DNA of 18,881 nt from a virus, in IMG/VR virus record IMGVR_UViG_3300045988_178209, positions 1-18,881 of that record; one strand, written 5' to 3'. Below are positions 1 to 18,881 of the stretch, one piece after another; position 1 is the first letter of the stretch; every line of letters begins with the position of its first letter. The notes under the pieces were generated by a model, which saw nothing but the letters and a program-made list of their open reading frames with translations, searched no databases and was not told the origin of the DNA. Position numbers and translations under genes: made by a program.

Positions 1-164
1 TGGGTTGGTTGGTGTTGTGTGTGGTGGGGTGTTGTGGTTGTTGTCTTGGTTGTTTTTTTTTTGTTTTTTCTGTGTTTGTGTTTTTCGGGTTGTGTTGTTG
101 TTGTTTGTGTGGTATGCTGTAGTTACAAACTTCAAGGGAAGGAATGTAAATTGTTTGTTGCAAC
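1..164. repeat. Left inverted terminal repeat (ITR)
   Basis: nt 1-137 are the exact reverse complement of nt 18745-18881. Identity continues with 2 mismatches (pos 138 and 148) to ~164, then decays into diverged homology through the terminal ORFs. The first 113 nt have no A and only 3 C (pos 45, 70, 86). Confidence 0.95.
90..118 (+). promoter_or_regulatory. Putative early promoter embedded in the ITR
   Basis: TTGTGT (90-95), 17-nt spacer, TATGCT (113-118), with TG at 110-111 giving an extended -10 (TGgTATGCT). It is followed by SD AAGGGAAGGAA (134-144) and a TTG at 151. An identical copy faces inward at the right end. Confidence 0.35.
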
Positions 165-492
165 TTATTTTGCGGATGATGATCGTACTGTCACTGTGAG
201 GCCTGTTGCGGTTAAGGGTGATGTGGATTGGTCGTCTCTTTATGTTGCTGATGATGGTACTGGGTATGGTATGTGGCAACAGGATGGTGATGATAGGTGG
301 TTTATTGATGTTGTTCCTGTGAATGGCTATGATCTGTGGCATGATTCGAATGCGTTGAAAATTACTGGTGTTTATGGTCTTGATGGGGATGATTGGGAGG
401 CTTGTGCGAATGATTTTCTTGCGGATTATGGTTTTAGGCTTGGTCGGTTCGATGAGGTTAAGGGTGATCGGTTTGAGCTGGTTGCGTTGTGA
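151..492 (+). CDS. Terminal acidic protein (~113 aa), paralogue of the right-end ORF; function unknown
   Basis: The track ORF 19-492 starts inside the G/T-only ITR. A more credible start is TTG 151, 7 nt after the SD AAGGGAAGGAA. I counted 23 D/E against 9 K/R. The C-terminal block DDWEACANDFLADYGFRLGRFDEVKGDRFELV is nearly identical in the right-end ORF. Confidence 0.6.
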   Translation: MFVATYFADDDRTVTVRPVAVKGDVDWSSLYVADDGTGYGMWQQDGDDRWFIDVVPVNGYDLWHDSNALKITGVYGLDGDDWEACANDFLADYGFRLGRFDEVKGDRFELVAL

Positions 493-728
493 TGGGAATG
501 TTTGTAGGTAAGGAGTGTATTGTGGAATGTTTTAGTGTCAGTATCGTTCAGCATTCGGATGGTGCTGCTACGGTTTCGTGTGAGGGCTTGTTCGGGTGTT
601 CGTATCATGCTGTGGTGCGCGCGGATGATGCGGTGTTGTTTTCGGCTTGGCTTATTGGTTGGGCTCGTGACTGTGTGGCTTTTGAGCCTGTGTGTGTGAA
701 GGGGGGTGAGTGTCGTGTTGTGTGTTGA
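489..728 (+). CDS. Hypothetical early protein (Cys-rich, ~68-79 aa)
   Basis: This is the only long frame in this interval. GTG 489 overlaps the upstream TGA stop (GTGA). An alternative start is GTG 522, 6 nt after AAGGAG (510-515). ORFs in an A-poor region are weak evidence on their own. Confidence 0.4.
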   Translation: MMGMFVGKECIVECFSVSIVQHSDGAATVSCEGLFGCSYHAVVRADDAVLFSAWLIGWARDCVAFEPVCVKGGECRVVC

Positions 729-1017
729 TGATATTATGCAACATCATTTCTTTACTTTGGTTGATTCGAAGTCTTTGCGGAGGGTTGTGTTCGTGTGGAC
801 GTGGAAGCATCCGAAGTATCGTTCGCCGTATCATGAGGTTTTCGTGCTGGCTGATGGCCGTCTGTGGTTGGTGCTTACGGAGCATGATTTGCTGGACGCG
901 TATTTGGCGTGCAAGCGTGCTTGTGATGTTGGCTTGTCTTTGGAGGGGTTGGCGTGTTCCGAGTGGTATGATGAGTATGCTTCGTGGGAGCGTCGTATTC
1001 TTGAAGATTTTGATTGA
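715..1017 (+). CDS. Hypothetical early protein (~100 aa)
   Basis: The frame-1 translation has a balanced, protein-like composition (...KHPKYRSPYHEVFVLADGRLWLVLTEHDLLDAYLACKRA...WERRILEDFD). A G-rich SD (698-708) precedes GTG 715. Alternative starts are GTG 706 and ATG 736. The overlapping frame-2 ORF (710-1027) looks like junk. Confidence 0.5.
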   Translation: MLCVDDIMQHHFFTLVDSKSLRRVVFVWTWKHPKYRSPYHEVFVLADGRLWLVLTEHDLLDAYLACKRACDVGLSLEGLACSEWYDEYASWERRILEDFD

Positions 1018-1027
1018 AAGGATTGTT

Positions 1028-1255
1028 ATGAAATCGTCTGAGCGTGATGTGAAGATCGCTGTTTTTTATAGTCCTCATCTGGCTGGTGACGTGAAGGTTA
1101 AGTATTGTCGCCATCGGCAGATGCTGGTGTTGGAATATCATACGAAGGATGGGGTGATGGCGCATGATTATGATGTGACGAAACCGAGTGAGGTGAGGGA
1201 TATGGTGTTGGATGCCATTGGTATTGCTGGCGAATCTGTCGGGGGGAGGGTGTGA
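1028..1255 (+). CDS. Hypothetical early protein (75 aa)
   Basis: ATG 1028 follows GAAAGGA (1016-1022). This is the protein-like C-terminal part of track ORF 710-1255 (MKSSERDVKIAVFYSPHLAGDVKVKY...). Confidence 0.55.
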   Translation: MKSSERDVKIAVFYSPHLAGDVKVKYCRHRQMLVLEYHTKDGVMAHDYDVTKPSEVRDMVLDAIGIAGESVGGRV

Positions 1256-1467
1256 TGTATTTTCGTGGGTTTGTCCATTCGCTTACGTGTGGTGATTGTC
1301 CGGATGCGGAGGCGTATTGGCGGCTTCGTGCTTTCTGGTGTGGCTATCGTAATTGTCGGTTTGTCGCGCCGGCTCGCTGTCCTGATTGTCTGATTGCCGT
1401 CTGGCATGACATGTGGGTGTGTGGGCATGATTATAGTGTTGAGCAGTTTGAGACGTTGGGAGTATGA
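1255..1467 (+). CDS. Hypothetical Cys-rich (zinc-ribbon-like) early protein (70 aa)
   Basis: ATG 1255 overlaps the upstream TGA (TGATG) and follows GGGGGGAGGG (1241-1250). It contains paired CxxC motifs (CGDC ... CPDC) plus further Cys/His residues. Confidence 0.5.
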   Translation: MYFRGFVHSLTCGDCPDAEAYWRLRAFWCGYRNCRFVAPARCPDCLIAVWHDMWVCGHDYSVEQFETLGV

Positions 1468-1470
1468 GTC

Positions 1471-1644
1471 ATGTATGAGACTTTCGTTGTTTTGGCTTAT
1501 TTGCGTCATGATGTTAAGCCTGTTGAGATCGGCTATGCGTCGTCGTATGACGAGGCTTATAGGGTGGTCCGTGAGTGGGCTGGCAGGCCGGAGCGTGTGA
1601 AGGATGTTTCTTATTTCAGGATTGAGGGTCGGTATTATGTCTAG
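1471..1644 (+). CDS. Hypothetical small early protein (57 aa), not in the supplied ORF track
   Basis: Hand translation gives MYETFVVLAYLRHDVKPVEIGYASSYDEAYRVVREWAGRPERVKDVSYFRIEGRYYV*. GGGAG (1457-1461) lies 9 nt upstream of the ATG. The stop overlaps the next gene's start (ATGTCTAG). It looks more protein-like than the competing track ORF 1394-1600. Confidence 0.45.
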   Translation: MYETFVVLAYLRHDVKPVEIGYASSYDEAYRVVREWAGRPERVKDVSYFRIEGRYYV

Positions 1645-2164
1645 GGGCTTTGTTCGGGGTGATGGTCGGGTTCCGATCTATCGTATGCGCGATTTTGATG
1701 ATGCGATCATGGAGTCGCCGCGTGTTCGTAGGGCGTTGCATGGTCGTATGCGTAAGGCTGGTTTGATCCGTTATGATGAGGGGTATGGTGATTTTGAGAC
1801 TTGCTGTCGGGCTGTCGCCATGCTGTGCGAATTGTGGCGTGAGGGGGTGAATCCGTGGTTTGATCGGGCTGTTCTTATGGCTGTGTGTATTGCCGGCTCT
1901 TTGAGCCGGGGGGATGGTTTGCAGTCGGCGTTGTCTCGTACTTTTGATGTGGAGTATTTGGATGGTACGGTGGATCCTGCGAATCTGATCGCTTGGTGTG
2001 CGGTGTGTGCGGTCAAGGGGGGTACGAGCTTTGATTGCTGTGCTCTTTTTGACGATGTGCAGGCGCGTAATCTTATCATTGCGGTTTTCAAGAATTTTGA
2101 CAGACTTGATGTGACTCGTTATAATGATAAGGAATTGTCAAGGATTTTTGATCAGGGAAGGTAG
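1637..2164 (+). CDS. Hypothetical early protein (175 aa)
   Basis: ATG 1637 lies 8 nt after GAGGG (1624-1628), within track ORF 1604-2164. I recognise no family. Confidence 0.6.
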   Translation: MSRGFVRGDGRVPIYRMRDFDDAIMESPRVRRALHGRMRKAGLIRYDEGYGDFETCCRAVAMLCELWREGVNPWFDRAVLMAVCIAGSLSRGDGLQSALSRTFDVEYLDGTVDPANLIAWCAVCAVKGGTSFDCCALFDDVQARNLIIAVFKNFDRLDVTRYNDKELSRIFDQGR

Positions 2165-2170
2165 GGTATT

Positions 2171-2488
2171 ATGGCTCGAGTGAAGTCGGGAGTGTTCCGG
2201 ACTCGCGTGTATGCCGTGTTGAAGGGCATGGAATTGGTGGATGGCGATTTTATGCCGATCGAGCATGTCATTGATGGGCGTCTGAAGGATGTTCGGGCGT
2301 ATGCGGTCCGTGCCAAGAGGCTTTTTCCGAATTTCATTCCGCGTACTGTCGAGATCTTTTCGCAGAAGGTCACGATGGATGACGAGACTTTTTATAAGTA
2401 TGCGACTTTTGAGGAGCCGCAGAAGTGGAATCCGGAAGAACACGAAAGAAAACGACACGCCGAAATTGAAAACAACGACGGCATGTGA
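2171..2488 (+). CDS. Hypothetical early protein (105 aa, acidic C-terminus); positional analogue of phi29 p6
   Basis: ATG 2171 follows GGAAGGTAGGG. It lies directly upstream of the SSB-like gene, as gene 6 does in phi29, and is similar in size with an acidic tail. No sequence similarity was recognised, so the functional call is positional only. Confidence 0.6.
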   Translation: MARVKSGVFRTRVYAVLKGMELVDGDFMPIEHVIDGRLKDVRAYAVRAKRLFPNFIPRTVEIFSQKVTMDDETFYKYATFEEPQKWNPEEHERKRHAEIENNDGM

Positions 2489-2494
2489 TATAAA
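2465..2494 (+). promoter_or_regulatory. Putative promoter of the replication operon
   Basis: TTGAAA (2465-2470), 18-nt spacer, extended -10 TGaTATAAA (2486-2494). A small hairpin TAGGC-acaaaa-GCCTA (~2501-2516) and an A-rich leader follow. Confidence 0.45.
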
Positions 2495-2553
2495 AGATTT
2501 AGGCACAAAAGCCTAGCAAAAAACAACAAACAACTATACAAAAGGATATGACC

Positions 2554-2991
2554 ATGGAAAACAACAACAGCACCGCACTCGTCGCATTCAACACCGAAAA
2601 CACTGAACTCGGCACCGTCCAGCACTTCATCGACACCAGCACTCGCGAAGGTAAGATCAAGCTCTACTCCGCACTCCAGAACGCGGAAAAGCTGGATGAA
2701 CATCTGAACGAAACCCTGCTCATGTCGAACGCGGTCGCACAGGCCGTGCAGGTGACCGACGATCAGACCGGGGAAGTCTCCACTACAGTGCGCGTCATTA
2801 TCGTGACCGCCGACGGCAAGGCGTACGCGGCCACCTCCCCCACTCTAGCGGCCGGGCTGAACACCATGTTCGGCATCTTCGGTACTCCGAACACGTGGGA
2901 TGCCCCTCTCGCCATCAAGGTGGTGGAACGTCGGTCCCGCCGTGGCTTCAAATTCTTCAGCATTGAGCCGGTGGATGAAGAAACGAAGTGA
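2554..2991 (+). CDS. Single-stranded DNA-binding protein, phi29 p5-like
   Basis: From memory of phi29 p5: MENNNSTALVAFNTEN..EGKIKLY vs MENTNIVKATFDTETLEGQIKIF; VIIVTADGKAYAATS vs TTIFAADGSLYSAIS; IKVVERRSRRGFKFFSIE vs VKVVQGTSSKGNVFFSLQ. ATG 2554 has better SD spacing than ATG 2548. The gene sits upstream of the TP/DNAP pair, as in phi29. Confidence 0.7.
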   Translation: MENNNSTALVAFNTENTELGTVQHFIDTSTREGKIKLYSALQNAEKLDEHLNETLLMSNAVAQAVQVTDDQTGEVSTTVRVIIVTADGKAYAATSPTLAAGLNTMFGIFGTPNTWDAPLAIKVVERRSRRGFKFFSIEPVDEETK

Positions 2992-3025
2992 TCCTATCGT
3001 GATCACCAAGTAGAATCCAAGTATA

Positions 3026-3052
3026 GAGAGCACTCCTACGCGGGGTGCTCTC
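3026..3052 (+). other. Intergenic stem-loop (possible attenuator or RNA stabiliser)
   Basis: GAGAGCACTCC (3026-3036), loop tacgc, GGGGTGCTCTC (3042-3052), with one G-U pair. Only a weak T tract (cttatct) follows. Confidence 0.3.
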
Positions 3053-3074
3053 CTTATCTGAAAGGACGTGTCCC

Positions 3075-4040
3075 ATGTCACGCAAGCAGAAGCACGTCAA
3101 AGCACGGCAGGCCGCGCAAGCCCGTGCCGCCCGCAACATCAAACAACTCGGCACCTACTCGCACGCGAATCTCGCTAAAACCGCCGACCAACAGCTTGTC
3201 AACATTGCCAAAACGTTAGGTCAGGAGTGGGAGAGGCAGAAAGCGCAAACCATTGCCAAAGCGAAAGCCACCCCCTATCATGCGACCGCCGCCGAAAAGC
3301 CGACGAAAAAAGACTATATGATAGCCAGCCGTACTCCTATTCCGGACGCGCAGATCGCCGACGAGCCCATAGTGAAACGGCGTAAGCTCCTACGCCAACA
3401 GCAACGGAAGATCAACGCGGCTAGAAGGAAAATCAATGAATGGAATCGTGCGCAAGCCATGCCAAAAGTCAGCGTATACGACCAGCGTGTAGCCGAAATG
3501 ACCGGCACGACAGGCGACACGGGATTCAGTGGAAACATCATCGTCCCATCCAAGCTGACAGACTTCCTTCAAATGACCAATGTATTGGACGATGAGGCTT
3601 TCGTCCGTGCCCAGCTGAAAGGCGGTCATCGTAAGGAGATTCTCGACCAAATGCATGACGCCGCCAGAATCCTTGGATTAAGGACGGAACGCGACCGCAA
3701 GCACACTGTCGCAAAGAAGCGGAAGAGCGGGAGGTCGGAAGTTCTCTACGGTAAAGGCGAATGGCCGGTCTACATGACTAAAAGCCGGTATGACGCTTTC
3801 GGTAAGGTGATTGGCTCTTCGCTCGGCGCGAAACGACTTAAGCGATTCCGTAGTCTGACCGCGGCTCAGAAAAGGGCTTTCATTGAACAGACCGATGCTC
3901 CCCATATCGTGTTTGGCTGGGTCGACTATGATGAGACCCATCATACATTCAGGCCGATATTCAAGCAGGATACCGAAGGGTATGAGCGTGCACGTCGAAA
4001 TTTCGATCGGTGGATGACCGAAGCCCAAACACTCGCATAA
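3075..4040 (+). CDS. Candidate terminal protein (321 aa, very basic N-terminal half)
   Basis: It lies immediately upstream of the protein-primed DNAP, as phi29 gene 3 does. The N-terminus is K/R/Q-rich (MSRKQKHVKARQAAQARAARNIKQ..., KRRKLLRQQQRKINAARRKINEW). ATG 3075 follows GAAAGGA. I see no direct similarity to phi29 TP. Confidence 0.5.
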   Translation: MSRKQKHVKARQAAQARAARNIKQLGTYSHANLAKTADQQLVNIAKTLGQEWERQKAQTIAKAKATPYHATAAEKPTKKDYMIASRTPIPDAQIADEPIVKRRKLLRQQQRKINAARRKINEWNRAQAMPKVSVYDQRVAEMTGTTGDTGFSGNIIVPSKLTDFLQMTNVLDDEAFVRAQLKGGHRKEILDQMHDAARILGLRTERDRKHTVAKKRKSGRSEVLYGKGEWPVYMTKSRYDAFGKVIGSSLGAKRLKRFRSLTAAQKRAFIEQTDAPHIVFGWVDYDETHHTFRPIFKQDTEGYERARRNFDRWMTEAQTLA

Positions 4041-4067
4041 CGACAGGATCAAAGGAAGTTATCTATC

Positions 4068-5516
4068 ATGATCGCTGACAGACGTGTAGGCTTATGGTGT
4101 GCCGACAATATCATACGATTCACGGATGGCACTCAATTGCGTGACATCGTCGCACCCCACAGCCTCTTGGCTTCCATCATGACCAATGGAAGGCTCATTG
4201 TCTACATGACCGACCCGCACATGCTTGACCCCTTCATAGCGCATGTCGTGCATAGCCTGCCACGTGACACGCATCATGCCAATATGAGCTGGGACAGCAT
4301 CGTGTCGAATAAGGGTAAATTCTTCAGCTTCACCGTAACCCTTTCCAAGAGGAATTCGGTAAGGTTTTTTGACATTTCCAATCTTTTGAGGGAGAATTGC
4401 CGCGCGATCATGTCCGATAGCCAATTGCTCGACATTCTGTGCGAGTATGACAGGCGGGGATTGTGTAGGATCACGGCCGGAGCGGCCAGTATGGAAGCTT
4501 TCGTGTCAGGCGACTGGACATGGTATGCGGACAAATTCCCCCAATTTGGGTTGGAGGATAAGAAGTCACTCCACGACGCCTATATCGGCGGATTCATGCT
4601 GGCGTGTGAAGGTGCTTATGGCAGGGCTATCGACGTGGACTGTAATTCCATGTATCCGAGCATCCTACGAGATGAGTGGCTTCCTTACGGTGAGCCGGAA
4701 GCGTATGAGGGTGCCTACAAGCAGGATGACGATATGCCGTTGCATTGTGACGAAATGACGTTTCGCGCGGAGCTGAAGCCGGGTGGGTATCCTTTTCTGC
4801 TTGACGGCCGGAGTGTCTATGGGCTGAACAGGCTTTCCTCTACCCGTGGGTTTGTCTCTCGCGTGCTTACCGACATCGACCAGCGGTTGCTTTTCGAAAA
4901 TTATGATGTGACGGTCTACCGGTATGTGCGCGGGTGGAAATTCCGGCGCTCCAAAGGTTTGTTCCGATCCTTCGTTGACGAGTGGGGGTCGGTGAAGCAG
5001 AAGGCGACGGGTGCTAGACGGCGGATGGCTAAGCTGGTCATGAATGCTTTGGTCGGCAAGATGGCGAGTCTATCGAAGGATTCCGTCATGGTGCCTTATT
5101 CGGATGATGGCGTTACCGTGCGATGGGATGTGATGAGGCGTGACGGGTCGGGTCTGAAATCCGATTATCTGCCCGTACCCGTGTGGGTCAATGCGTACGC
5201 GCGCCGCAAGCTTATGGATGTCTGTCATGCCAATGCGGATAGATTGCTGTATGCGAATACGGATGGTTGCATTTTGTCTGGTTGGGATCCGCCAAAGTCG
5301 TGTGCTGTCCATGCGACCGAGCTTGGTCGGTGGAAGATCGCCGCACGATATGAGAGGCTTGCCGTTCTTGGTATGAATCGATATCAGGGGTGGCGTGATG
5401 ATGGTGAAGTCGATGTCTGCATGTCGGGCAGTCTTTTTGTCGAGCCTATACCTTACGAAAAATTCCGGCATGGCGAGCATGTGCATGATGCGTGCGGTAC
5501 GGTGGTCGTGCTATGA
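4068..5516 (+). CDS. Protein-primed family-B DNA polymerase (482 aa)
   Basis: Colinear with phi29 DNAP by eye: GLCRITAGAASMEAF vs GLDRMTAGSDSLKGF; VDCNSMYPS (motif A) vs DVNSLYPA; LPYGEPEAYEGAY vs LPYGEPIVFEGKY; GLFRSFVDEW vs GLFKDFIDKW; KLVMNALVGK (motif B); LLYANTDGCIL (motif C). Confidence 0.9.
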   Translation: MIADRRVGLWCADNIIRFTDGTQLRDIVAPHSLLASIMTNGRLIVYMTDPHMLDPFIAHVVHSLPRDTHHANMSWDSIVSNKGKFFSFTVTLSKRNSVRFFDISNLLRENCRAIMSDSQLLDILCEYDRRGLCRITAGAASMEAFVSGDWTWYADKFPQFGLEDKKSLHDAYIGGFMLACEGAYGRAIDVDCNSMYPSILRDEWLPYGEPEAYEGAYKQDDDMPLHCDEMTFRAELKPGGYPFLLDGRSVYGLNRLSSTRGFVSRVLTDIDQRLLFENYDVTVYRYVRGWKFRRSKGLFRSFVDEWGSVKQKATGARRRMAKLVMNALVGKMASLSKDSVMVPYSDDGVTVRWDVMRRDGSGLKSDYLPVPVWVNAYARRKLMDVCHANADRLLYANTDGCILSGWDPPKSCAVHATELGRWKIAARYERLAVLGMNRYQGWRDDGEVDVCMSGSLFVEPIPYEKFRHGEHVHDACGTVVVL

Positions 5517-5523
5517 TTGGAAT

Positions 5524-5695
5524 GTCCTTCGGAGCGTCGATTTTCGACTGGGAATGACGGTGATCGGATTACCACGGCTGAGAATGCCGCCGATTGCGGG
5601 TGGTCATCATCGTGGTGGTGGTGCCCTACGATTTCAAGGTGCGCTCTCATGGGATGTCGGACCCCGCGCGTGATTGCGCGGGGTCATTGCTTTTT
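5524..5695 (+). ncRNA. Candidate ~170-nt small RNA (pRNA-like?) or structured 3' UTR
   Basis: Extended -10-like TGcTATGAT (5509-5517) overlaps the DNAP stop. About 140 nt with no convincing ORF follow, ending in a strong intrinsic terminator (5660-5695). Short local helices are visible, e.g. GTCGA/TCGAC at 5536-5548. No fold was computed. Confidence 0.2.
5660..5695 (+). terminator. Rho-independent terminator ending the early/replication transcription unit
   Basis: GACCCCGCGC (5660-5669), loop gtgatt, GCGCGGGGTC (5676-5685), then attgcTTTTT. Confidence 0.8.
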
Positions 5696-5703
5696 CGGCG
5701 TTA

Positions 5704-5712
5704 TGATATAAT
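5704..5712 (+). promoter_or_regulatory. Putative late promoter (extended -10 TGATATAAT)
   Basis: A perfect TGnTATAAT sits 9 nt after the terminator T-run and 37 nt upstream of the scaffold gene ATG. The same 9-mer recurs at 15927. Confidence 0.5.
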
Positions 5713-5748
5713 TTTCAGTGAAAGTATCGTCCAGAGTAAGGAGATCGT

Positions 5749-6027
5749 ATGGATGATCCGAAGACTGACGGCGAGGAGTCCGTTACCTCGCCGCCGACCG
5801 AAGAAGCACAGTGCACCGAGACCGTAAATGATGAGGTCAAACCGGAGGAGGGTGAGCCGGATCCGAAGCGGGAGCCGGATGTGAGCGCCCGACTTGACAT
5901 GCTCGAAAAGGAGTTGGCCGCACTCAAAGCCATGATGGATACGCTTGGCTATGATGAGTCGACCGTGACCGATGATGACGGTGTCGGCGTCGGTGATGAC
6001 GATTCCATCGAAAATTTGTTCGACTAA
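5749..6027 (+). CDS. Scaffolding protein (phi29 gp7-like by position and composition)
   Basis: 92 aa, strongly acidic, with a central helical segment (ARLDMLEKELAALKAMMDTL). It lies directly upstream of the capsid gene. SD TAAGGAG is 5 nt before the ATG. Confidence 0.65.
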   Translation: MDDPKTDGEESVTSPPTEEAQCTETVNDEVKPEEGEPDPKREPDVSARLDMLEKELAALKAMMDTLGYDESTVTDDDGVGVGDDDSIENLFD

Positions 6028-6047
6028 CGTAGGAAGGATGAACACAT

Positions 6048-7763
6048 ATGTCCACTGTTCGACCATTGGCAGGCAAGGGTGATGTTGAGATCTTCAATGC
6101 GGTGAGATCCGCTACGTCACCGCAATTCCAGACTCGTATTCCGTCGGCGACGCAGGGCAATATTCGCAATGCCGTCGACACCATGCGCAATTTCCCGTAC
6201 CTGCGCGACGAATTCACCGGAGTCCTGATCCAGCGTCTCATCGGCCTCTACGTCCAGCACGCCGACTGGGATGACCCGCTGAAGCTGGTCGGTTCTCCTC
6301 GTACGCTCAAGCGCTACGGTTCCACGTACGAGCAGGCCGCAGTCGGCTTGGTCAAGGCACGCACCCGTAATTTCAATCAGGAGTATCTTGGCGATGACGT
6401 GTACGGTCGCTATAGTCTGCCGACCGCAAGCGCCTTCCATCCATTGACTTTCGATCACTATTATCCGGTCACCATTCCGGAGGATGCGCTTCTTACCGCT
6501 TTCGACGGCGAATCCGGCATGTCGGATTACATCAGTGAGATCATGAACGCTCCGATCCTGTCGGACCGTAATGATATGTATTTGATGAAGACGCAGACGT
6601 TTGCCGAGTACGCTCGTAAGGGTGGCTTCTACCGCGTGCATACGCCTGACGTCGGCAAGGCCGATTCGACCGAGGCGGATGCGAAGGGTCTGCTCCGTCT
6701 CATCCAACAGATGGCGAACGAACTCAAGGCATCGCCAATGAGCGCCATGCCGAAATATAACGCCATGAGCTGGGTGACTCCGTGGCGCGATTCGGAAGCG
6801 ATCCTTTTCGCCACCCCGCAGGTCATCGCCGCTTTGAATGTCGAGGCTCTCGCCGCCGCCTTCAATATCGACCGCGCCAATGTCCCGTACCGTATCATCC
6901 CCATTCCCGAGGATCTTTTCGGCATCGGCGGCAATGGTGGCAAGGTGCAGGCCGTCCTCACCACCGAAGATTTCTTCTTCTGCTGGGATGAGCTGTTGGA
7001 GACCACGAATTCTCCGGTCAATCCTATCGACGGCACTCGTAACATCTTCTACAAGCACCGCGGCTCCATCACGCCGAATCCTTTCGCCAATGCCATCCTC
7101 TTCTGGACGGGTGAAGGGTCGACCGAATCGGTGACCTTGCCGGATACGCTCACGACCTCCAAGCCGGAATTCGTCCTGCGTGTCAAGAAGTACGGTCAGC
7201 CTGCGGTCACTCCTCAGAACGTGTCGCGCGGCGCTCTCGTCCAAGTGGAGGCGACCATTGCAAGCGCCAACAAGACTGCCGCATCCTTCCAGCCGGTCGG
7301 CGTCAAGTATGCGATCGAGGGGGCGACCTCACAGTATACCGGCATCGACAATGACGGTATTCTGCGCTGTGGCTTGGATGAGACCGCCGAAAGCCTCAAG
7401 GTCACGGCACAGGCGACCTACATTGACCCGGCCACTCCGGAAATCGACCAGACGCTTTCCGCGGCACTCGACGTGCCTGTCGTCGGCACGTGGGTCGGTG
7501 GCATCAAGATCGGCGCACTGTCCGGTCTGAAGGTCGACGGCCCGAATACCGTCAAGGCTTCCGAATCCGTCAAGCTGACCGCCACCGCGGTCAAGACGGA
7601 TGGTTCGAAGCAGGACGTCAGCAATCTCGCTGATTGGAGCGTGGATGCGCATGCCAAGGTCGACAAGACGGGTAAGGTTACCGGTGAGGATGCAGGCAGT
7701 GCGAAGGTGACCGTCAAATTCGCGGGAGTCACTGCGGATAAGACCATCACCGTTTCCGCCTGA
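6048..7763 (+). CDS. Major capsid protein, phi29 gp8-like, with C-terminal Big_2 Ig-like domain
   Basis: N-terminus EIFNAVRSATSPQFQTRIPSATQGNI...LIQRLIGLYV...DDPLK vs phi29 gp8 [26 protein letters not shown]...LVDRIGLVV...NNPLK. The C-terminus VKASESVKLTATAVKTDGSKQDVSNLADWSV...GKVTGEDAGSAKVTVKFAGVTADKTITV is a typical Big_2 repeat. Confidence 0.9.
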   Translation: MSTVRPLAGKGDVEIFNAVRSATSPQFQTRIPSATQGNIRNAVDTMRNFPYLRDEFTGVLIQRLIGLYVQHADWDDPLKLVGSPRTLKRYGSTYEQAAVGLVKARTRNFNQEYLGDDVYGRYSLPTASAFHPLTFDHYYPVTIPEDALLTAFDGESGMSDYISEIMNAPILSDRNDMYLMKTQTFAEYARKGGFYRVHTPDVGKADSTEADAKGLLRLIQQMANELKASPMSAMPKYNAMSWVTPWRDSEAILFATPQVIAALNVEALAAAFNIDRANVPYRIIPIPEDLFGIGGNGGKVQAVLTTEDFFFCWDELLETTNSPVNPIDGTRNIFYKHRGSITPNPFANAILFWTGEGSTESVTLPDTLTTSKPEFVLRVKKYGQPAVTPQNVSRGALVQVEATIASANKTAASFQPVGVKYAIEGATSQYTGIDNDGILRCGLDETAESLKVTAQATYIDPATPEIDQTLSAALDVPVVGTWVGGIKIGALSGLKVDGPNTVKASESVKLTATAVKTDGSKQDVSNLADWSVDAHAKVDKTGKVTGEDAGSAKVTVKFAGVTADKTITVSA

Positions 7764-7786
7764 TCCCATGATAATCGGGTAGAATG

Positions 7787-7818
7787 GGTGCAGTAGCGAT
7801 ACTGCACCTATTTTTTTT
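7787..7818 (+). terminator. Rho-independent terminator/attenuator after the capsid gene
   Basis: GGTGCAGTA (7787-7795), loop gcga, TACTGCACC (7800-7808), then TA + T8 (7811-7818). Confidence 0.8.
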
Positions 7819-7828
7819 GGAGGATATG

Positions 7829-10060: not shown

Positions 10061-10063
10061 CGT

Positions 10064-10098
10064 ATAATGGAGTGAGCGATACAATCTCACTCCATTAT
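10064..10098 (+). promoter_or_regulatory. 13-bp perfect inverted repeat overlapping a TATAAT box
   Basis: ATAATGGAGTGAG (10064-10076), loop cgatacaat, CTCACTCCATTAT (10086-10098), with no T-run after it. TATAAT is at 10063-10068. This could be a promoter, an operator or an RNA processing site. Confidence 0.35.
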
Positions 10099-10117
10099 CT
10101 ATAGTAGGACGGTGATC

Positions 10118-11056: not shown

Positions 11057-11057
11057 C

Positions 11058-11870: not shown

Positions 11871-11876
11871 AGTATA

Positions 11877-12500: not shown

Positions 12501-12518
12501 CAGGAAGGATTACGGCAA

Positions 12519-13060: not shown

Positions 13061-13066
13061 CATAAA

Positions 13067-14533: not shown

Positions 14534-14602
14534 TCACGGGAGTCGGACCATGATTCGTATCGAAAGGGGTGAGAGCGCCGTGAAGTAAGGTAGGCTCGAA
14601 GG

Positions 14603-14642
14603 ATGGCCATGCCACTATAATGGTGGTATGGCCATTACTTTT
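14603..14642 (+). terminator. Rho-independent terminator with TATAAT in its loop
   Basis: ATGGCCATGCCAC (14603-14615), loop TATAATg, GTGGTATGGCCAT (14623-14635, one G-U pair), then TACTTTT. Confidence 0.65.
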
Positions 14643-15983: not shown

Positions 15984-16017
15984 GGGGGTGTGACGGTGGT
16001 CATGACGTCACACCCCC
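15984..16017 (+). other. GC-rich stem-loop in the leader of the ATPase gene (terminator/attenuator or RNA element)
   Basis: GGGGGTGTGACG (15984-15995), 10-nt loop, CGTCACACCCCC (16006-16017), then ttctcat (a weak U tract). A second helix GTCGGC/GCCGAC (~15943-15980) lies upstream. Confidence 0.5.
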
Positions 16018-16041
16018 TTCTCATATGGAGGAGGAGCTATC

Positions 16042-17109
16042 GTGGCATTGCAGACATTAGGCGAAAACGACTACTATAATCTTCACGACATCCTCACTCG
16101 CAATGCCCCATGGAATTTCATCATCGGAGCGCGCGGCCTCGGCAAAACATTCGCAGCCAAACAATACGGCATCAAGGAATACCTTAAACGTGGACACGAA
16201 TTCATCTACCTACGACGTACCGACGTGGAACAGAAACGCAAGGAGACATTCTTCAAAGACATCCAAAGCTTCTTCCCGGAATACGCTTTTCGCGTCAACG
16301 GCGAAAAGGGCCAATTGCATAAAAATTCGTGGGATGAAAAGGATTGGCGTACATGCTGTCACTTCATCGCCCTCTCCCAAGCCGGCGGACTGAAATCAGT
16401 CGCCTATCCGAAAGTCCATCTCATCATCTTCGATGAAATCTTCCCCGACAATCTACGCTTCCTCAGCAATGAAGTCAATTCCTTCTCCGAATTCTATAAT
16501 ACGGTGGACCGCTGGCAGGACAGGACCAAAGTCCTCTTCCTATCCAATGCCGTACAGAAAGCCAATCCGTATTTCGCCAAATACAGGCTAGACATCGGAG
16601 CACAGCAGAACACCCAACAACAGTACAAACTCTACTGTAACGGCTTCATCTGCCTCGAAATGGCCGACTACGGCGGATTTTCCGCAAAAATATCCAAATC
16701 CAAATTCGGCAGATTCCTCGAACAATACGACGCCGACTATGCGGATTACGCCATCCGCAACAAGTTCAAAGACGAATCAGACAAGCTCCTCGCCCCCATA
16801 CCCTCCGACAGTGAGCTCTCCTACACACTAGACACCACCGACTATGGACGCTTCGGTATCTGGATCACCATATCCGAGCGGGACGGCCACGCCTCCCAAT
16901 ACATTTCACGACGCATCCCCAAAGGCAACAACCGCCCCGTATACACGCTCGACCCCAATCACGTCGACGAAAAAACATGGTACATCAAAAAATCCGACGA
17001 TGTGATCAGACGACTCACCACCGGATACCGACTTGGCAAGATAAGATTCGAAGACTCCCAAGTCAAAGCGGATTTCGCCCTCATCATCGGAGACCTATTA
17101 GGAAAATAG
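16042..17109 (+). CDS. DNA packaging (encapsidation) ATPase, phi29 gp16-like
   Basis: Walker A is GARGLGKT and Walker B is HLIIFDE. At 355 aa it is typical of the gp16 family. GTG start lies 5 nt after GGAGGAGGAG. Confidence 0.9.
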   Translation: MALQTLGENDYYNLHDILTRNAPWNFIIGARGLGKTFAAKQYGIKEYLKRGHEFIYLRRTDVEQKRKETFFKDIQSFFPEYAFRVNGEKGQLHKNSWDEKDWRTCCHFIALSQAGGLKSVAYPKVHLIIFDEIFPDNLRFLSNEVNSFSEFYNTVDRWQDRTKVLFLSNAVQKANPYFAKYRLDIGAQQNTQQQYKLYCNGFICLEMADYGGFSAKISKSKFGRFLEQYDADYADYAIRNKFKDESDKLLAPIPSDSELSYTLDTTDYGRFGIWITISERDGHASQYISRRIPKGNNRPVYTLDPNHVDEKTWYIKKSDDVIRRLTTGYRLGKIRFEDSQVKADFALIIGDLLGK

Positions 17110-17125
17110 AAAGGAATCACAATAA

Positions 17126-17488
17126 ATGACACAGTCAGACATATGGTACACCATCGCCGTCATATTCTTCATCATCACGGATTACGTGACCGGAGTGGTC
17201 AAAGCCATCATGCAAAGCACTCTATCCTCTTCGAAAATGCGAGAAGGCCTAGGCCACAAATTCGCCTACCTCATACTCACACTGGTAGCATATTTCATCG
17301 ACACGATCAATTCGCATATCGACATCGGACTACCGGTCAGCGTATTCGTCTGCACAGTCAGCGGCATATGCCTCATCGAGCTTACCTCAATCCTCGAAAA
17401 CATCACCGCCATCAACCCCAGCCTGAAAAACGCATCATTCATGAACATCTTCGAACAAAACAGCACACCAAAACATAAGGAGGAATAA
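17126..17488 (+). CDS. Holin (Phage_holin_4_1 / TcdE-like)
   Basis: 120 aa with three hydrophobic segments. The family-typical N-terminus is ...ITDYVTGVVKAIMQSTLSSSKMREGLGHKFAYLIL.., and the C-terminal tail is polar and charged. The endolysin gene follows immediately. Confidence 0.85.
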   Translation: MTQSDIWYTIAVIFFIITDYVTGVVKAIMQSTLSSSKMREGLGHKFAYLILTLVAYFIDTINSHIDIGLPVSVFVCTVSGICLIELTSILENITAINPSLKNASFMNIFEQNSTPKHKEE

Positions 17489-17491
17489 GCC

Positions 17492-18355
17492 ATAAACAAC
17501 ATCACATGGATAGGCTCACCAAACCATTACACAGGACGAGCCGGACACAACATCACCCACATCACCCTACACATCATGGTCGGACACCTCGCCGGCACCG
17601 ACAGCGTATTCCAACACCCCGGAGGAGCCTCAGCACACTACGGCATCGGCGCAGACGGCACCATCCATCAATACGTAAGCGAAGCAGACGGATCATGGTC
17701 AGACGCCAACCGCGAATCAAACCTTTCAACAATCAGCATCGAACACGAAGGAGGCAAAGCCGGAATACCATGCACACAAGCCTGCATGGACGCTTCCGCC
17801 CAACTCTGCGCCGACATCGCCCGCAGATACGGGTGGACACGCCTATGGTACGACGGACTCAACGGCAACATCTGGCTCCATCGAGAAATCCCAGGCACCG
17901 ACCACTACGGTTGCCCAGATAAAACCATCAACGGCCTGAACATAAACTACGTAATCAACAAAGCCAACGAGATACTAAAAGGAGACAATATGACAAGCGC
18001 ACAAGACATTTGGGATTACCCCATCGGAACCGAAGGCACCGCAGGCAAAAACAATCAACCCGCCTGGACTCGACTCAGCTGGATCCACCAAGACACCACA
18101 AGACTCTACGCCACACTAGGACGCACCGACGACGGCGGCACCAAAGACGGAAGCAAAGGCGACATCTACACGCGCATCTGCTACATCGACAAACGCATAC
18201 GCGAAATGAGCGCCACCATAACCGCACAAGCCACCGCCATCGAAACATTAAGCAAAGCCATCGGAACCAACCCCACCAACATCGCACAAATAGTACAAGA
18301 TGCAGTAAAAACCAAGCTAGACAGCCTACAAATCACAGTAACCAACAAACAATAA
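17492..18355 (+). CDS. Endolysin: N-acetylmuramoyl-L-alanine amidase (Amidase_2/PGRP) plus unknown C-terminal domain; non-canonical start proposed
   Basis: The amidase signature INNITWIGSPNHYTGRAGHNITHITLHIMVGH...SAHYGIG...ISIEHEGG...WLHREIPGTDHYGCPD begins upstream of the first ATG (17576). No ATG/GTG/TTG/CTG lies in frame between the holin stop (17486-17488) and 17576. ATA 17492 lies 8 nt after AAGGAGG (17477-17483). The coding body is certain; the exact start is not. Confidence 0.8.
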   Translation: MNNITWIGSPNHYTGRAGHNITHITLHIMVGHLAGTDSVFQHPGGASAHYGIGADGTIHQYVSEADGSWSDANRESNLSTISIEHEGGKAGIPCTQACMDASAQLCADIARRYGWTRLWYDGLNGNIWLHREIPGTDHYGCPDKTINGLNINYVINKANEILKGDNMTSAQDIWDYPIGTEGTAGKNNQPAWTRLSWIHQDTTRLYATLGRTDDGGTKDGSKGDIYTRICYIDKRIREMSATITAQATAIETLSKAIGTNPTNIAQIVQDAVKTKLDSLQITVTNKQ

Positions 18356-18366
18356 GACAACACAAG

Positions 18367-18399
18367 AAAAGCCCCTAGGAAATCAACCTAGGGGCTTTT
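18367..18399. terminator. Bidirectional rho-independent terminator between convergent genes
   Basis: AAAAGCCCCTAGG (18367-18379), loop aaatcaa, CCTAGGGGCTTTT (18387-18399). The A-run and T-run flanks allow termination in both directions. Confidence 0.85.
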
Positions 18400-18410
18400 A
18401 CTATCACCAT

Positions 18411-18731
18411 TCAAACCTCCACCAACTCATACCGGTCACCCAACACCTCATCAAAAGCACCAAGCCTAAAACCATAATCAGCAAGAAAATCATTCGCACA
18501 AGCCTCCCACTCATCCTCATCCTCACCAAACACACCCTCAACACGCTCAGCACAACAATGAACACACTCAGACTCAGAATCAATATACCACCGTCCATCA
18601 AAATCATACCACATACCCTTACCAGTAACCGCATCAAGAATAAGCAAAACATCATACGAATAACCCGCACACACAGCAACCGGCTTAACAGTAACCCTCT
18701 CACCAGTAGCGACATCAGTTGCAACAAACAA
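18411..18731 (-). CDS. Terminal acidic protein (~106 aa), paralogue of the left-end ORF; function unknown
   Basis: This is the mirror of 151-492. TTG (complement of 18729-18731) is preceded by AAGGAAAGGAA. I counted 24 D/E against 7 K/R. The shared C-terminus is DEWEACANDFLADYGFRLGAFDEVLGDRYELV. The track ORF extends into the ITR (to 18863), which I regard as an artefact. Confidence 0.6.
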   Translation of the reverse strand: MFVATDVATGERVTVKPVAVCAGYSYDVLLILDAVTGKGMWYDFDGRWYIDSESECVHCCAERVEGVFGEDEDEWEACANDFLADYGFRLGAFDEVLGDRYELVEV

Positions 18732-18881
18732 TTCACATTCCTTTCCTTGAAGTTTGTAACTACAGCATACCACACAAACAACAACAACACAACCCGAAAA
18801 ACACAAACACAGAAAAAACAAAAAAAAAACAACCAAGACAACAACCACAACACCCCACCACACACAACACCAACCAACCCA
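18718..18881. repeat. Right inverted terminal repeat (ITR)
   Basis: Reverse complement of 1-164: exact over 18745-18881, with 2 mismatches further in. Confidence 0.95.
18764..18792 (-). promoter_or_regulatory. Right-end copy of the ITR-embedded putative promoter
   Basis: Exact reverse complement of 90-118 (inside the perfect 137-bp ITR), facing inward toward the terminal ORF. Confidence 0.35.

What the first reader, a model, noticed from the sequence alone, without database searches (positions are those of the whole stretch)
1..164. ITR built almost only of G and T on the 5'-ended strand, with short terminal reiterations
The first 113 nt of the 5'-ended strand contain no A and only 3 C, so the 3' template strand is almost pure A/C (...CCAACCAACCCA-3'). 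The extreme terminus reads TGGGTTGGTTGGTG, i.e. GGTT/TTGG units reiterated. Protein-primed systems need terminal reiteration for sliding-back or jumping-back after internal initiation (phi29 TTT, adenovirus GTAGTA). A 4-nt reiteration would suggest a jump-back type mechanism. GG tracts spaced by TT/TGT resemble two-tetrad G-quadruplex formers and could fold in the displaced strand. At 137 bp, the exact ITR is far longer than phi29's 6-bp ITR.
Basis: partly seen in the sequence, partly recalled or inferred. Interest (0 to 1): 0.65.

Follow-up and report, generated by a model that had tools for sequence, protein, structure and literature searches.

The report
G/T-only phage end from strand bias
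The almost pure G/T inverted repeat at the ends of this small Bifidobacterium phage genome is real. It is the non-coding tip of a 2-3 kb zone at each end in which the strand that ends 5' there has lost nearly all A and C at free sites, which looks like a mutational footprint of protein-primed, strand-displacement replication rather than a designed origin sequence.

Summary
Positions 1-113 have 0 A and 3 C, the exact ITR is 137 bp, and the terminus reads TGGGTTGGTTGGTG.

The window is a complete-looking 18.9-kb phi29-like podophage genome. It has a protein-primed family-B polymerase and phi29-type SSB, capsid, connector and gp16 ATPase. Its closest relatives are Bifidobacterium dentium phages BD811P1-3.

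The G/T-only character is not special to the ITR.
- Four-fold degenerate sites of the neighbouring genes are 89-94% G/T on the strand that ends 5' at that end.
- The bias extends about 2.4 kb at the left and about 2.9 kb at the right.
- At the right end it runs through + strand late genes, whose coding strand is therefore A/C-rich. It follows DNA-end polarity, not transcription.
- The purine fraction stays constant, which indicates net C->T and A->G change, as on the vertebrate mtDNA heavy strand.
- Relatives show the same polarity more weakly. So do Arthrobacter and Microbacterium phi29-like phages whose terminal genes point outward.

The few A and C left in the ITR sit in conserved boxes: an extended -10 promoter, TTCTGTG and TTTTCGGG.

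The 4-nt reiteration is marginal (about 4% of G/T shuffles) and not conserved. There is no G-quadruplex motif.

Best reading: replication origin plus early promoter, eroded to G/T by deamination of the displaced 5'-ended strand. The sharp inner edges of the biased zones are unexplained.

The parts
1..137 (+). Left copy of the exact inverted terminal repeat. Near-identity continues to 165, with mismatches at 138 and 148.
   Evidence: Ungapped comparison of the window with its reverse complement. Identity profile is 100% for 1-100, 96% for 101-150, then 52-68%.
18745..18881 (-). Right copy of the exact ITR
1..30 (+). G-rich terminal block (18 G in 30 nt) holding the period-4 GGTT reiteration at 3-13. 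Candidate minimal origin for TP-primed initiation (inferred).
   Evidence: Relatives also begin with G-rich blocks such as GTGGGAGGGGTGTGGG; in the BP1 record an Illumina adapter directly abuts that sequence, which marks a physical end.
53..85 (+). T-tract block (T10, T6, T5) containing the conserved TTCTGTG box with C70. Possible easily melted or bent segment (inferred).
   Evidence: tandem runs. Alignment A1 shows T9-10 followed by GTTCTGTG in the BP1-clade ends.
82..89 (+). Conserved TTTTCGGG box, which retains C86. It lies just upstream of the -35-like hexamer.
   Evidence: Alignment A1. The same box is present in all BP1-clade ends.
90..118 (+). Early promoter inside the ITR: -35-like TTGTGT (90-95), 17-nt spacer, extended -10 TGGTATGCT (110-118). 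The first A of the genome (114) is the A of the -10 hexamer.
   Evidence: TGnTATnnT is invariant in 9 aligned ends (T110 G111 T113 A114 T115 T118). The consensus scan did not list it because the -35 matches only 3/6. Function is inferred.
118..150 (+). Conserved leader box TGTAGTTACAAACTTCAAGG followed by the ribosome-binding site AAGGGAAGGAA (134-144)
   Evidence: The pattern occurs near the ends of 27 stretches from IMG/VR contigs of about 11-19 kb, and at both ends of eight of those contigs.
151..492 (+). First early gene (113 aa, TTG start where relatives have ATG). No family match.
   Evidence: Third-position keto skew +0.88.
18411..18731 (-). Paralogue of the first gene at the right end (106 aa, 54% identical). 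The ends are therefore an old inverted duplication of about 490 bp, of which only about 137-165 bp is kept identical.
   Evidence: BLASTP E = 2e-33. Identity profile.
1..2450 (+). Left biased zone. The + strand, which ends 5' here, is G/T-rich. Third-codon keto skew is +0.7 to +0.9 and four-fold sites are A .02, C .09, G .41, T .48.
   Evidence: The inner edge is sharp: +0.64 at 2251-2400, then -0.07, then -0.51 at 2551-2700.
16000..18881 (-). Right biased zone. The - strand, which ends 5' here, is G/T-rich, although the ATPase, holin and endolysin genes (16042-18355) are coded on the + strand. Their four-fold sites on the + strand are A .32, C .54, G .085, T .05.
   Evidence: The bias is graded from -0.4 at 16.1 kb to -0.95 at 18.5 kb. 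The inner edge is sharp at about 16.0 kb.
18367..18399 (.). 13-bp GC-rich hairpin with T runs on both sides. Likely a bidirectional terminator between the right early gene and the late lysis genes.
4068..5516 (+). Protein-primed-type family-B DNA polymerase (482 aa)
   Evidence: PF03175, E = 9e-23. 28% identity to Av-1 polymerase, E = 9e-45. TPR1/TPR2 regions align with phi29.
3075..4040 (+). Candidate terminal protein (321 aa, basic N-terminus), assigned by position between the SSB and polymerase genes only
   Evidence: Same gene order as Av-1 (ssb-TP-pol), Cp-1 and phi29. No sequence match in Pfam, PHROGs, PDB or to the Av-1 TP.
2554..2991 (+). phi29-type single-stranded-DNA-binding protein. 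The first gene inside the unbiased core.
   Evidence: PF17427, E = 1.9e-19

Best explanation
The window is the linear genome of a phi29-like Bifidobacterium podophage that replicates by protein priming from both ends.

The 137-bp ITR has two jobs.
- The outer G-rich part is the replication origin (inferred).
- The inner part is an early promoter (extended -10 TGGTATGCT), leader and ribosome-binding site that drive paralogous first genes inward from each end. This rests on conservation; it is not tested.

I do not think its G/T-only make-up was selected for priming. It looks like the saturated, unconstrained read-out of a strand-specific mutation pressure, net C->T and A->G, on whichever strand ends 5' at that end.
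- That is the strand displaced as single-stranded DNA when a terminal-protein-primed polymerase enters from the end.
- It is also the last part to be copied back.
- Cytosine and adenine deaminate much faster in single-stranded DNA. This is the accepted explanation of the G+T-rich heavy strand of vertebrate mtDNA (established knowledge; searches list papers on it that I did not open).

Where sequence is constrained, A and C survive: the promoter -10, conserved boxes, the ribosome-binding site, and codon positions 1 and 2. Where it is free, they are almost gone: ITR spacer DNA and four-fold sites.

The exact identity of the two ITR copies implies ongoing homogenisation of the terminal 137-165 bp. 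The known routes are panhandle pairing or template switching in protein-primed replicons (inferred).

Shown: the anatomy, the regional bias, its polarity and its independence from transcription. Inferred: single-stranded exposure and deamination as the cause, and the origin function.
For: 1. phi29-type replicon: PF03175 polymerase and phi29 SSB, capsid, gp9, connector and gp16. The TPR1/TPR2 regions align with phi29, Av-1 and Cp-1. Nearest records are the BD811P1-3 and BP1 Bifidobacterium phages.

2. The bias is regional, not ITR-specific.
- Third-codon keto skew is +0.71 to +0.88 for genes in 151-2164.
- It is about 0 for 2554-15916.
- It is -0.53 to -0.91 for 16042-18731.
- ITR G/T content (110/113) is not distinguishable from four-fold sites of the terminal genes (96/102; P = 0.095).

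3. Polarity follows the DNA end, not transcription.
- The + strand late genes at the right end (gp16 ATPase by Pfam; holin and endolysin by PHROGs) have A/C-rich coding strands.
- In Arthrobacter phage Mendel and Microbacterium phage PineapplePizza the terminal genes point outward. Even so, four-fold sites are 72-79% G/T on the 5'-ended strand at both ends.

4. The signature is transition-like. The purine fraction at four-fold sites is constant (.43 left.44 core.41 right) while C falls from .39 to .09 and A from .11 to .02 on the 5'-ended strand. Synonymous differences against BP1 are directional in the ATPase gene (T->C 49 versus C->T 17; G->A 22 versus A->G 13, on the + strand). They are mostly symmetric in the capsid-gene control: C->T 44 versus T->C 45, though A->G 21 versus G->A 12.

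5. The same pattern with the same edges occurs in BD811P2 and P3. It is weaker in BP1 and in about 25 metagenomic relatives. Terminal non-coding G+T tracks the G+T of the next 1 kb (r = 0.64).

6. The residual C70, C86 and A114 fall in boxes conserved across clades. The window has T where the BP1 clade has C in GGGCGTGTCGT, and TTG where relatives have the ATG start.
Against: - The inner edges of the biased zones are steps at intergenic sites (about 2.45 kb and 16.0 kb). Simple two-origin strand-displacement kinetics predict a linear decline towards the middle. At the left end the edge tracks the start of the SSB gene in all relatives whatever the distance. Codon-usage selection in core genes, or a special terminal process, must therefore contribute.
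- phi29, Cp-1 and Curtobacterium phage Mimi16 replicate (or are presumed to replicate) the same way but show no such bias.
- Directional transversions (A->C, G->C on the + strand at the right end) also occur, so the pressure is not pure deamination.
- No direct evidence on replication intermediates, true termini or mutation spectra was obtainable.
- The promoter was not picked up by the consensus scan.
Confidence: 0.6

Rival explanations
1. Designed origin. The G/T-only 5' strand, and so the A/C-only 3' template, together with the GGTT/TTGG reiteration are selected because the TP-polymerase complex initiates internally and slides or jumps back. An A/C-only template also cannot fold.
For: Backward translocation on terminal repeats is the rule in studied protein-primed systems: phi29 TTT, PRD1 CCCC, adenovirus GTAGTA, Bam35 ATAATA (PMC5175343). 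TGG recurs at 1-3, 6-8 and 10-12, and GGTT repeats over 3-13. Both ITR strands fold to 0 kcal/mol.
Against: The same composition holds at four-fold sites for kilobases of coding DNA, so no origin-specific selection is needed. The reiteration is matched in about 4% of G/T shuffles and is not conserved in relatives. A close relative (L042, 84% polymerase identity) has a -13 kcal/mol GC hairpin within its terminal 113 nt, so freedom from structure is not conserved. Zero folding energy follows trivially from the composition.
Confidence: 0.15
2. The G-rich displaced 5' end folds into two-tetrad G-quadruplexes that act in replication or packaging.
For: The first 30 nt are 60% G. G4Hunter reaches 1.2-1.28 for windows starting at positions 6-16.
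Against: No run of four G2+ tracts with loops of 7 nt or less lies in 1-150, and there is no G3+ motif anywhere in the genome. Higher G4Hunter scores occur at internal coding sites (1.52 at 1644). Across the genome, 101 + strand windows reach 1.2 or more.
Confidence: 0.04
3. Transcription-linked or mRNA-level cause. Either the non-template strand of the strongly transcribed early operons is deaminated, or G/U-rich early mRNAs are selected, for example to escape sequence-specific endoribonucleases.
For: In this genome the early genes at both ends are transcribed inward, so their coding strand is the G/T-rich strand. The inner edges lie near strong promoter-like sites: TTGACA-17-TATAAT at 2097-2125 and a TG-extended TATAAT at 15906-15935.
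Against: The + strand ATPase, holin and endolysin genes at 16042-18355 have A/C-rich coding strands (four-fold keto .14). Mendel and PineapplePizza have outward-pointing terminal genes with A/C-rich coding strands, yet show the same end polarity.
Confidence: 0.06
4. Enzymatic editing. A host (or phage) single-strand DNA deaminase attacks the exposed terminal strands, for example as a defence, producing zone-limited hypermutation rather than slow spontaneous decay.
For: The bias is extreme (A 2% at four-fold sites), the zone edges are sharp, and the bias is absent from phi29 and Cp-1 in other hosts.
Against: Surviving C shows no dinucleotide context signature: TC observed/expected is 1.0-1.09 and all three ITR Cs are in a TC context. 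Both C and A are affected. Open reading frames and protein homology are intact, which fits long-term equilibrium. No deaminase was found among the phage proteins scanned.
Confidence: 0.1
5. Artefact. The outer G/T block is low-complexity sequence added by sequencing or assembly at contig ends.
For: The outer 82 nt at each end are absent from the independent ENA scaffold of the same genome. Reads could not be inspected.
Against: The block is identical at both ends in inverted orientation and stops at the same base. Positions 83-137 are confirmed by the ENA scaffold. The T-run/TTCTGTG and TTTTCGGG boxes align with independently assembled relatives. Relative L038 carries a similar G/T-rich extension. 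The same bias continues into intact genes.
Confidence: 0.05

Closest known systems
ITRs of phi29-like podophages with long repeats: Streptococcus phage Cp-1 (236 bp) and Actinomyces phage Av-1
   Same: Linear genome of about 17-19 kb and a protein-primed family-B polymerase. The ITR runs to tens or hundreds of bp and carries or abuts early promoters that read inward (annotations). The gene order ssb-TP-pol...gp16-lysis is shared with Av-1.
   Different: The Cp-1 and phi29 ends are A/C-rich on the 5'-ended strand (AAAGCATGTACTCCCCC, AAAGTAAGCCCCC) and their genomes show no terminal keto skew. Here the 5'-ended strand is 97% G/T and the terminus starts TGGG rather than AAA.
Bifidobacterium phages BD811P1-3 and BP1, and about 170 metagenomic relatives
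   Same: Same family: 79% nucleotide identity over the core and 72-89% polymerase identity. They share the promoter/leader box at the ends and the polarity of the terminal bias.
   Different: The deposited isolate genomes lack complete ends. Their terminal non-coding DNA is 66-84% G+T and contains A, C, palindromes and hairpins. The window is the extreme case among those sampled.
Heavy-strand (G+T-rich) compositional asymmetry of vertebrate mitochondrial DNA
   Same: Strand-displacement replication. The displaced strand becomes G+T-rich through C->T and A->G change. The effect is strongest at four-fold sites, independent of gene orientation, and of comparable magnitude (background from established knowledge).
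   Different: In mtDNA the bias is graded with time spent single-stranded around the whole molecule. Here it is confined to terminal zones of 2-3 kb with step-like inner edges, on opposite strands at the two ends.
Adenovirus, PRD1 and Bam35 origins (jumping-back and sliding-back on terminal reiterations)
   Same: A short reiteration at the extreme end of an ITR in a protein-primed genome (PMC5175343).
   Different: Those reiterations are conserved among relatives and were shown by experiment to direct internal initiation. Here the repeat is of marginal significance, is not conserved and is untested.

Membership tests
phi29-like protein-primed podophage replicon | Family-B DNA polymerase of the protein-primed subgroup (PF03175, with TPR1 and TPR2 insertions) | tested here: met
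   PF03175 at 81 bits against a cut-off of 25.8. The TPR1 and TPR2 regions align with phi29, Av-1 and Cp-1.
phi29-like protein-primed podophage replicon | Terminal protein gene next to the polymerase gene | tested here: inconclusive
   A 321-aa basic ORF (3075-4040) sits between the SSB and polymerase genes, as in Av-1. It has no match in Pfam, PHROGs, PDB or to the Av-1 TP.
phi29-like protein-primed podophage replicon | Inverted terminal repeats at the physical ends of a linear genome | tested here: met
   137-bp exact ITR ending at the same base on both sides. The physical ends themselves were not verified.
phi29-like protein-primed podophage replicon | Protein covalently bound to the 5' ends | not testable with these tools
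   Needs virion DNA biochemistry.
phi29-like protein-primed podophage replicon | phi29-type SSB, capsid, tail knob, connector and gp16 packaging ATPase | tested here: met
   PF17427, PF25622, PF20934, PF05352 and PF05894, all above their cut-offs.
phi29-like protein-primed podophage replicon | Packaging RNA (pRNA) | tested here: inconclusive
   No Rfam match. A conserved structured non-coding element after the polymerase gene is a candidate.
Origins using sliding-back or jumping-back | Reiterated bases at the extreme 3' end of the template that allow backward translocation | tested here: inconclusive
   TGG at 1-3, 6-8 and 10-12, and GGTT repeated 2.75 times at 3-13. About 4% of G/T shuffles do as well, and relatives' ends differ. 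The terminal base itself is uncertain.
Origins using sliding-back or jumping-back | Initiation directed by an internal template base | not testable with these tools
   Needs in vitro TP-deoxynucleotidylation.
G-quadruplex-forming sequence | Four G tracts (2-3 or more G each) separated by short loops, with a high G4Hunter score | tested here: not met
   No G2+ motif with loops of 7 nt or less in 1-150, and no G3+ motif genome-wide. G4Hunter maximum 1.28.
Replication-associated strand asymmetry of the displaced-strand (mtDNA heavy-strand) type | Bias present at four-fold degenerate and non-coding sites | tested here: met
   89-94% G/T at four-fold sites and 97% in the ITR spacer.
Replication-associated strand asymmetry of the displaced-strand (mtDNA heavy-strand) type | Polarity set by replication direction, independent of transcription direction | tested here: met
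   The + strand late genes at the right end have A/C-rich coding strands. Outward-pointing terminal genes in Mendel and PineapplePizza show the same end polarity.
Replication-associated strand asymmetry of the displaced-strand (mtDNA heavy-strand) type | Driven by C->T and A->G on the exposed strand | tested here: met
   Constant purine fraction with loss of C and A. Synonymous differences are directional, although some directional transversions are also seen.
Replication-associated strand asymmetry of the displaced-strand (mtDNA heavy-strand) type | Bias graded with expected time spent single-stranded | tested here: inconclusive
   Graded within the right zone (-0.4 to -0.95), but with step-like inner edges at about 2.45 and 16.0 kb and a nearly flat core. 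Mendel shows a genome-wide gradient.

The most novel reading that the evidence does not exclude
The terminal 2-3 kb of these Bifidobacterium phage genomes, and of some other actinobacterial phi29-like phages, may form a distinct mutational compartment. In it the protein-capped 5' strands would persist single-stranded far longer than the rest of the genome.

Two routes could produce this. One is stalled or abortive terminal displacement loops, analogous to the mitochondrial D-loop. The other is targeting by a single-strand deaminase.

Either would drive free sites to about 95% G/T, speed up the evolution of early and lysis genes, and erode ITR spacers to two letters. I found no description of such a replication intermediate or host-phage interaction for protein-primed phages.
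Probability: 0.25. Interest if true: 0.75.

Novelty: new variant of a known kind. Interest (0 to 1): 0.58.

Why it matters
If this reading is right, base composition alone records which strand is exposed, and roughly how far from each end, during protein-primed replication in living gut bacteria. That process has so far been studied mainly in vitro with phi29.

It would also:
- explain why the ends of this abundant family of human-gut Bifidobacterium phages diverge so fast and assemble so poorly;
- warn against reading low-complexity ITRs as designed origin signals;
- point to a concrete puzzle, the sharp inner edges of the biased zones, which may mark an unknown replication intermediate, a barrier or a defence.

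Practically, the two-letter ends and their conserved promoter box can help recognise complete genomes of this family in metagenomes.

Tried and rejected
- Metagenome scan with a clade-specific promoter pattern: no hits. I did not use the second scan.
- Closest relatives by polymerase (P0001, P0002, P0005): their contigs are cut before the end, so there is no ITR to compare. Only L042 and L038 gave new ends.
- Deposited BD811P1-3 and BP1 records: the ends are truncated or rearranged.
- Rfam: no RNA family anywhere in the window.
- Terminal protein homology through Pfam, PHROGs, PDB sequences and pairwise BLASTP to the Av-1 TP: nothing. I did not predict a structure because it would not bear on the finding.
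- Folding of the ITR strands: 0 kcal/mol for both, but uninformative because shuffles give the same.
- Deaminase context signature (TC depletion): absent.
- Chi-like protection against end-entering nucleases: rejected by reasoning. Known Chi sites act on the 3'-ended strand at the entry end, which here is the A/C strand.
- Palindrome or restriction-site avoidance: palindromic 4-mers are fewer in the terminal zones (43-46 per kb against 67 per kb), but this follows automatically from the skew, so it is not independent evidence.
- Literature searches for terminal strand asymmetry in protein-primed phages and for descriptions of these Bifidobacterium phages' ends found no prior description in the library held.
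Full report
**What the window is.** The 18,881-bp window has identical inverted ends and a single long array of + strand genes, flanked by one - strand gene at the right end.
- Megablast finds only Bifidobacterium phages: BD811P1-3 of B. dentium (79% identity over 1459-17986) and BP1 of B. pseudocatenulatum.
- Pfam places the genes in the phi29 group: phi29-type SSB (2548-2991), PF03175 polymerase (4068-5516), phi29 capsid protein, gp9 tail knob, connector and gp16 packaging ATPase (16042-17109). PHROGs adds a holin and an endolysin at 17126-18355.
- The polymerase aligns with those of phi29, Av-1 and Cp-1 through the TPR1 and TPR2 regions.
- A 321-aa basic ORF between the SSB and polymerase genes is the positional candidate for the terminal protein. 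It has no detectable homology.

**The observation.** It holds exactly.
- Positions 1-113 contain T 67, G 43, C 3 and no A. The ends are exact reverse complements for 137 bp, with mismatches at 138 and 148 and divergence from 166.
- The repeat is really the conserved tip of an older inverted duplication of about 490 bp. The first gene at each end (151-492 on +, 18411-18731 on -) encodes paralogues 54% identical (E = 2e-33). DNA identity rises again to 90% at 401-450.
- Against genome-wide composition the A/C-poor run is overwhelming (P = 5.5e-30), and it is the longest A-free run in the genome.

**The G/T-only character is not a property of the ITR.**
- Keto skew (G+T minus A+C) at third codon positions is +0.71 to +0.88 for all genes in 151-2164 and +0.38 for 2171-2488. 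It is between -0.22 and +0.23 for the whole core (2554-15916). It is -0.53, -0.57, -0.78 and -0.91 for the four genes from 16042 to the right end.
- At four-fold degenerate sites the core has A .11, C .39, G .33, T .17. The left zone has A .02, C .09, G .41, T .48. The + strand genes of the right zone have A .32, C .54, G .085, T .05.
- The ITR (110/113 G/T) does not differ statistically from four-fold sites of the two terminal genes (96/102; P = 0.095). No origin-specific selection is needed to explain its composition.

**What sets the polarity.**
- At the left end the G/T-rich strand is the coding strand. Across 16042-18355 at the right end it is the template strand of the ATPase, holin and endolysin genes.
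- What the two ends share is that the G/T-rich strand is the one whose 5' end lies at that terminus.
- The same holds in BD811P2 and P3 with the same edges. It is weaker in BP1 and in about 25 metagenomic relatives.
- It also holds in two other lineages. In Arthrobacter phage Mendel and Microbacterium phage PineapplePizza the terminal genes point outward, so their coding strands are A/C-rich, yet four-fold sites are 72-79% G/T on the 5'-ended strand at both ends.
- This excludes transcription, mRNA-level and protein-level explanations as the common cause.
- phi29, Cp-1 and Curtobacterium phage Mimi16 lack the bias, and B. asteroides phage BadAargau2 and Av-1 show it weakly. It is recurrent, not universal.

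**What kind of change produced it.**
- The purine fraction at four-fold sites is constant (.43.44.41) while C and A are lost from the 5'-ended strand. That is net C->T and A->G.
- Synonymous differences between the window and BP1 in the ATPase gene are directional: T->C 49 versus C->T 17, and G->A 22 versus A->G 13, on the + strand. In the capsid-gene control C->T/T->C is symmetric (44 versus 45) and A->G/G->A is 21 versus 12.
- Some directional transversions occur too.
- No dinucleotide context signature of a TC-specific deaminase is seen.
- This is the signature of the vertebrate mtDNA heavy strand, which is attributed to deamination while the strand is displaced and single-stranded (established knowledge).
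- In protein-primed replication the strand displaced from an end is the 5'-ended one, and its terminal part is exposed first and copied back last. That gives a ready mechanism. This step is inference.

**Anatomy of the ITR in that light.** Aligning the window's end with ends of relatives shows that the few surviving A and C sit in conserved elements.
- C70 is in TTCTGTG, after a T9-10 run shared with the BP1 clade. C86 is in TTTTCGGG.
- A114 is the A of an invariant extended -10, TGnTATnnT (110-118).
- After that come the conserved leader TGTAGTTAYMARCTTCAAGG and a ribosome-binding site. That pattern gave 27 matching stretches at the ends of IMG/VR contigs of about 11-19 kb, and it lies near both ends of eight contigs.
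- Where the BP1 clade has C (GGGCGTGTCGT) the window has T. Even the start codon is TTG where relatives have ATG.
- The ITR therefore reads as: G-rich outer block (candidate origin), T-tract block, early promoter, leader and the first five codons. Everything unconstrained has been reduced to G and T.

**Terminal reiteration and jump-back.**
- GGTT repeats over 3-13, and TGG recurs at 1-3, 6-8 and 10-12. A backward translocation of the kind described for phi29, PRD1, adenovirus and Bam35 (PMC5175343) is sterically possible.
- In a two-letter sequence about 4% of shuffles give an equal or longer terminal repeat.
- Related termini differ: GTGGGAGGGGTGTGGG in the BP1 clade, TATGGTGTTGGG in L042, GTTGATCGTC in L038, GTTTTGGGGAGGG in BadAargau2 and TGTGTCTGTG in Av-1. 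In the BP1 record an Illumina adapter directly abuts the GTGGGAGG end, which marks a physical end.
- From its first base the window matches the BP1-clade terminus from that terminus's second base (TGGG...; 16 of 23 by my own count of the sequences). One 5' base may therefore be missing here.
- The proposal remains untested and is not supported by conservation.

**G-quadruplex and structure.**
- No motif of four G2+ tracts with loops of 7 nt or less lies in 1-150. G4Hunter peaks at 1.28, below several coding sites.
- Both ITR strands fold to 0 kcal/mol, but that follows trivially from the composition. It is not conserved either: L042 has a -13 kcal/mol hairpin in its terminal 113 nt.

**What remains unexplained.**
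- The inner edges of the biased zones are steps. Skew goes from +0.64 to -0.51 across 2250-2700, and from about 0 to -0.48 across 15900-16050.
- At the left end the step follows the start of the SSB gene in all relatives, whatever the distance from the end. Simple two-origin kinetics predict a linear decline.
- Either codon-usage selection in the core masks a smooth gradient, or the terminal 2-3 kb has a special single-stranded history. A weak trend from +0.23 to -0.09 across the core and a genome-wide gradient in Mendel fit the first option. Stalled displacement loops or enzymatic attack would be examples of the second.
- Promoter-like sites lie near both zone edges: TTGACA-17-TATAAT at 2097-2125, about 0.3 kb inside the left edge, and a TG-extended TATAAT at 15906-15935, at the right edge. 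I could not tell whether that is meaningful.

**Reliability of the ends.**
- The ENA scaffold of the same genome is 164 nt shorter; it starts at window position 83, and I infer an equal 82-nt loss at the right end, which I did not read. It confirms positions 83 onward.
- The outer 82 nt rest on this assembly alone. In their favour, they end identically at both ends, their boxes align with relatives, and L038 has a similar G/T-rich extension.
- Reads could not be examined.

**Novelty.**
- As an ITR with origin plus early promoter it is an ordinary member of a known kind. Cp-1 and Av-1 are the closest models.
- The two-letter composition and the terminal zones of about 90-95% G/T at free sites are new as far as four full-text searches show. 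They follow DNA-end polarity in several actinobacterial phi29-like lineages.
- I class this as a new variant of a known kind, namely displaced-strand compositional asymmetry.

Noticed in passing
window 5517-5748: The conserved non-coding gap of about 230 nt after the polymerase gene holds a multi-helix structure (about 5528-5650) that is conserved in 9 relatives; 14 of 52 predicted pairs show compensatory changes. A GC hairpin terminator (about 5667-5693) and an invariant TATGATATAAT follow it. There is no Rfam match. It is a candidate packaging RNA (pRNA) for this phage group.
   Followed up: partly
window 4068-5516: The 482-aa polymerase of the whole Bifidobacterium phage group lacks the segment that carries exonuclease motif ExoIII (Yx3D), through a deletion of about 35 aa relative to phi29, Av-1 and Cp-1. 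It also lacks the glutamate of ExoI (DxE). ExoII N/D is kept. Proofreading may be lost, which could raise the mutation rate overall.
   Followed up: partly
L004 (PQ571273.1, BP1) about 235-290: The deposited BP1 genome contains an Illumina adapter sequence (...ACACTCTTTCCCTACACGACGCTCTTCCGATCT) inside the record, directly abutting GTGGGAGG.... The record's left end is therefore rearranged, and the true terminus lies about 290 nt in.
   Followed up: partly
PQ571295.1 (Klebsiella phage KA1-2) 1-61: The first 61 nt of this unrelated Klebsiella phage record match the promoter/leader box of this Bifidobacterium phage family (81% identity to window 82-143). Its accession lies in the same block as BP1's. 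Cross-sample carry-over in assembly is likely.
   Followed up: no
window 2097-2125 and 15906-15935: A perfect sigma-70 consensus (TTGACA-17-TATAAT) lies inside gene 1637-2164, about 0.3 kb inside the left edge of the biased zone. A TG-extended TATAAT lies in the intergenic gap at the right edge.
   Followed up: no
window 151-153 and 18729-18731: Both terminal genes start with TTG where all aligned relatives have ATG. A two-codon ATG-TAA mini-ORF sits just upstream at the left end (145-150); the right copy reads ATG-TGA because of the mismatch at 148.
   Followed up: no
L011 1-100; L020/L029 about 260-300: Some IMG/VR relatives carry long perfect palindromes near their ends, centred on CTAAGTTACGGTTACGTAACCGTAACTTAG. 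These are either real terminal hairpin-forming elements or snap-back assembly artefacts.
   Followed up: no
window 2554-2991: The SSB gene, the first gene of the unbiased core, has the opposite skew (third-position keto -0.22, reaching -0.51 at 2551-2700; C .49 at four-fold sites). The same dip appears just inside the left zone edge in nearly all relatives.
   Followed up: partly
L045 (Arthrobacter phage Mendel), whole genome: Third-position keto skew declines steadily from about -0.1 near 2 kb to -0.5 or -0.66 near the right end, and flips to +0.3 to +0.7 only in the leftmost 1.1 kb. This would fit unequal use of the two origins.
   Followed up: no
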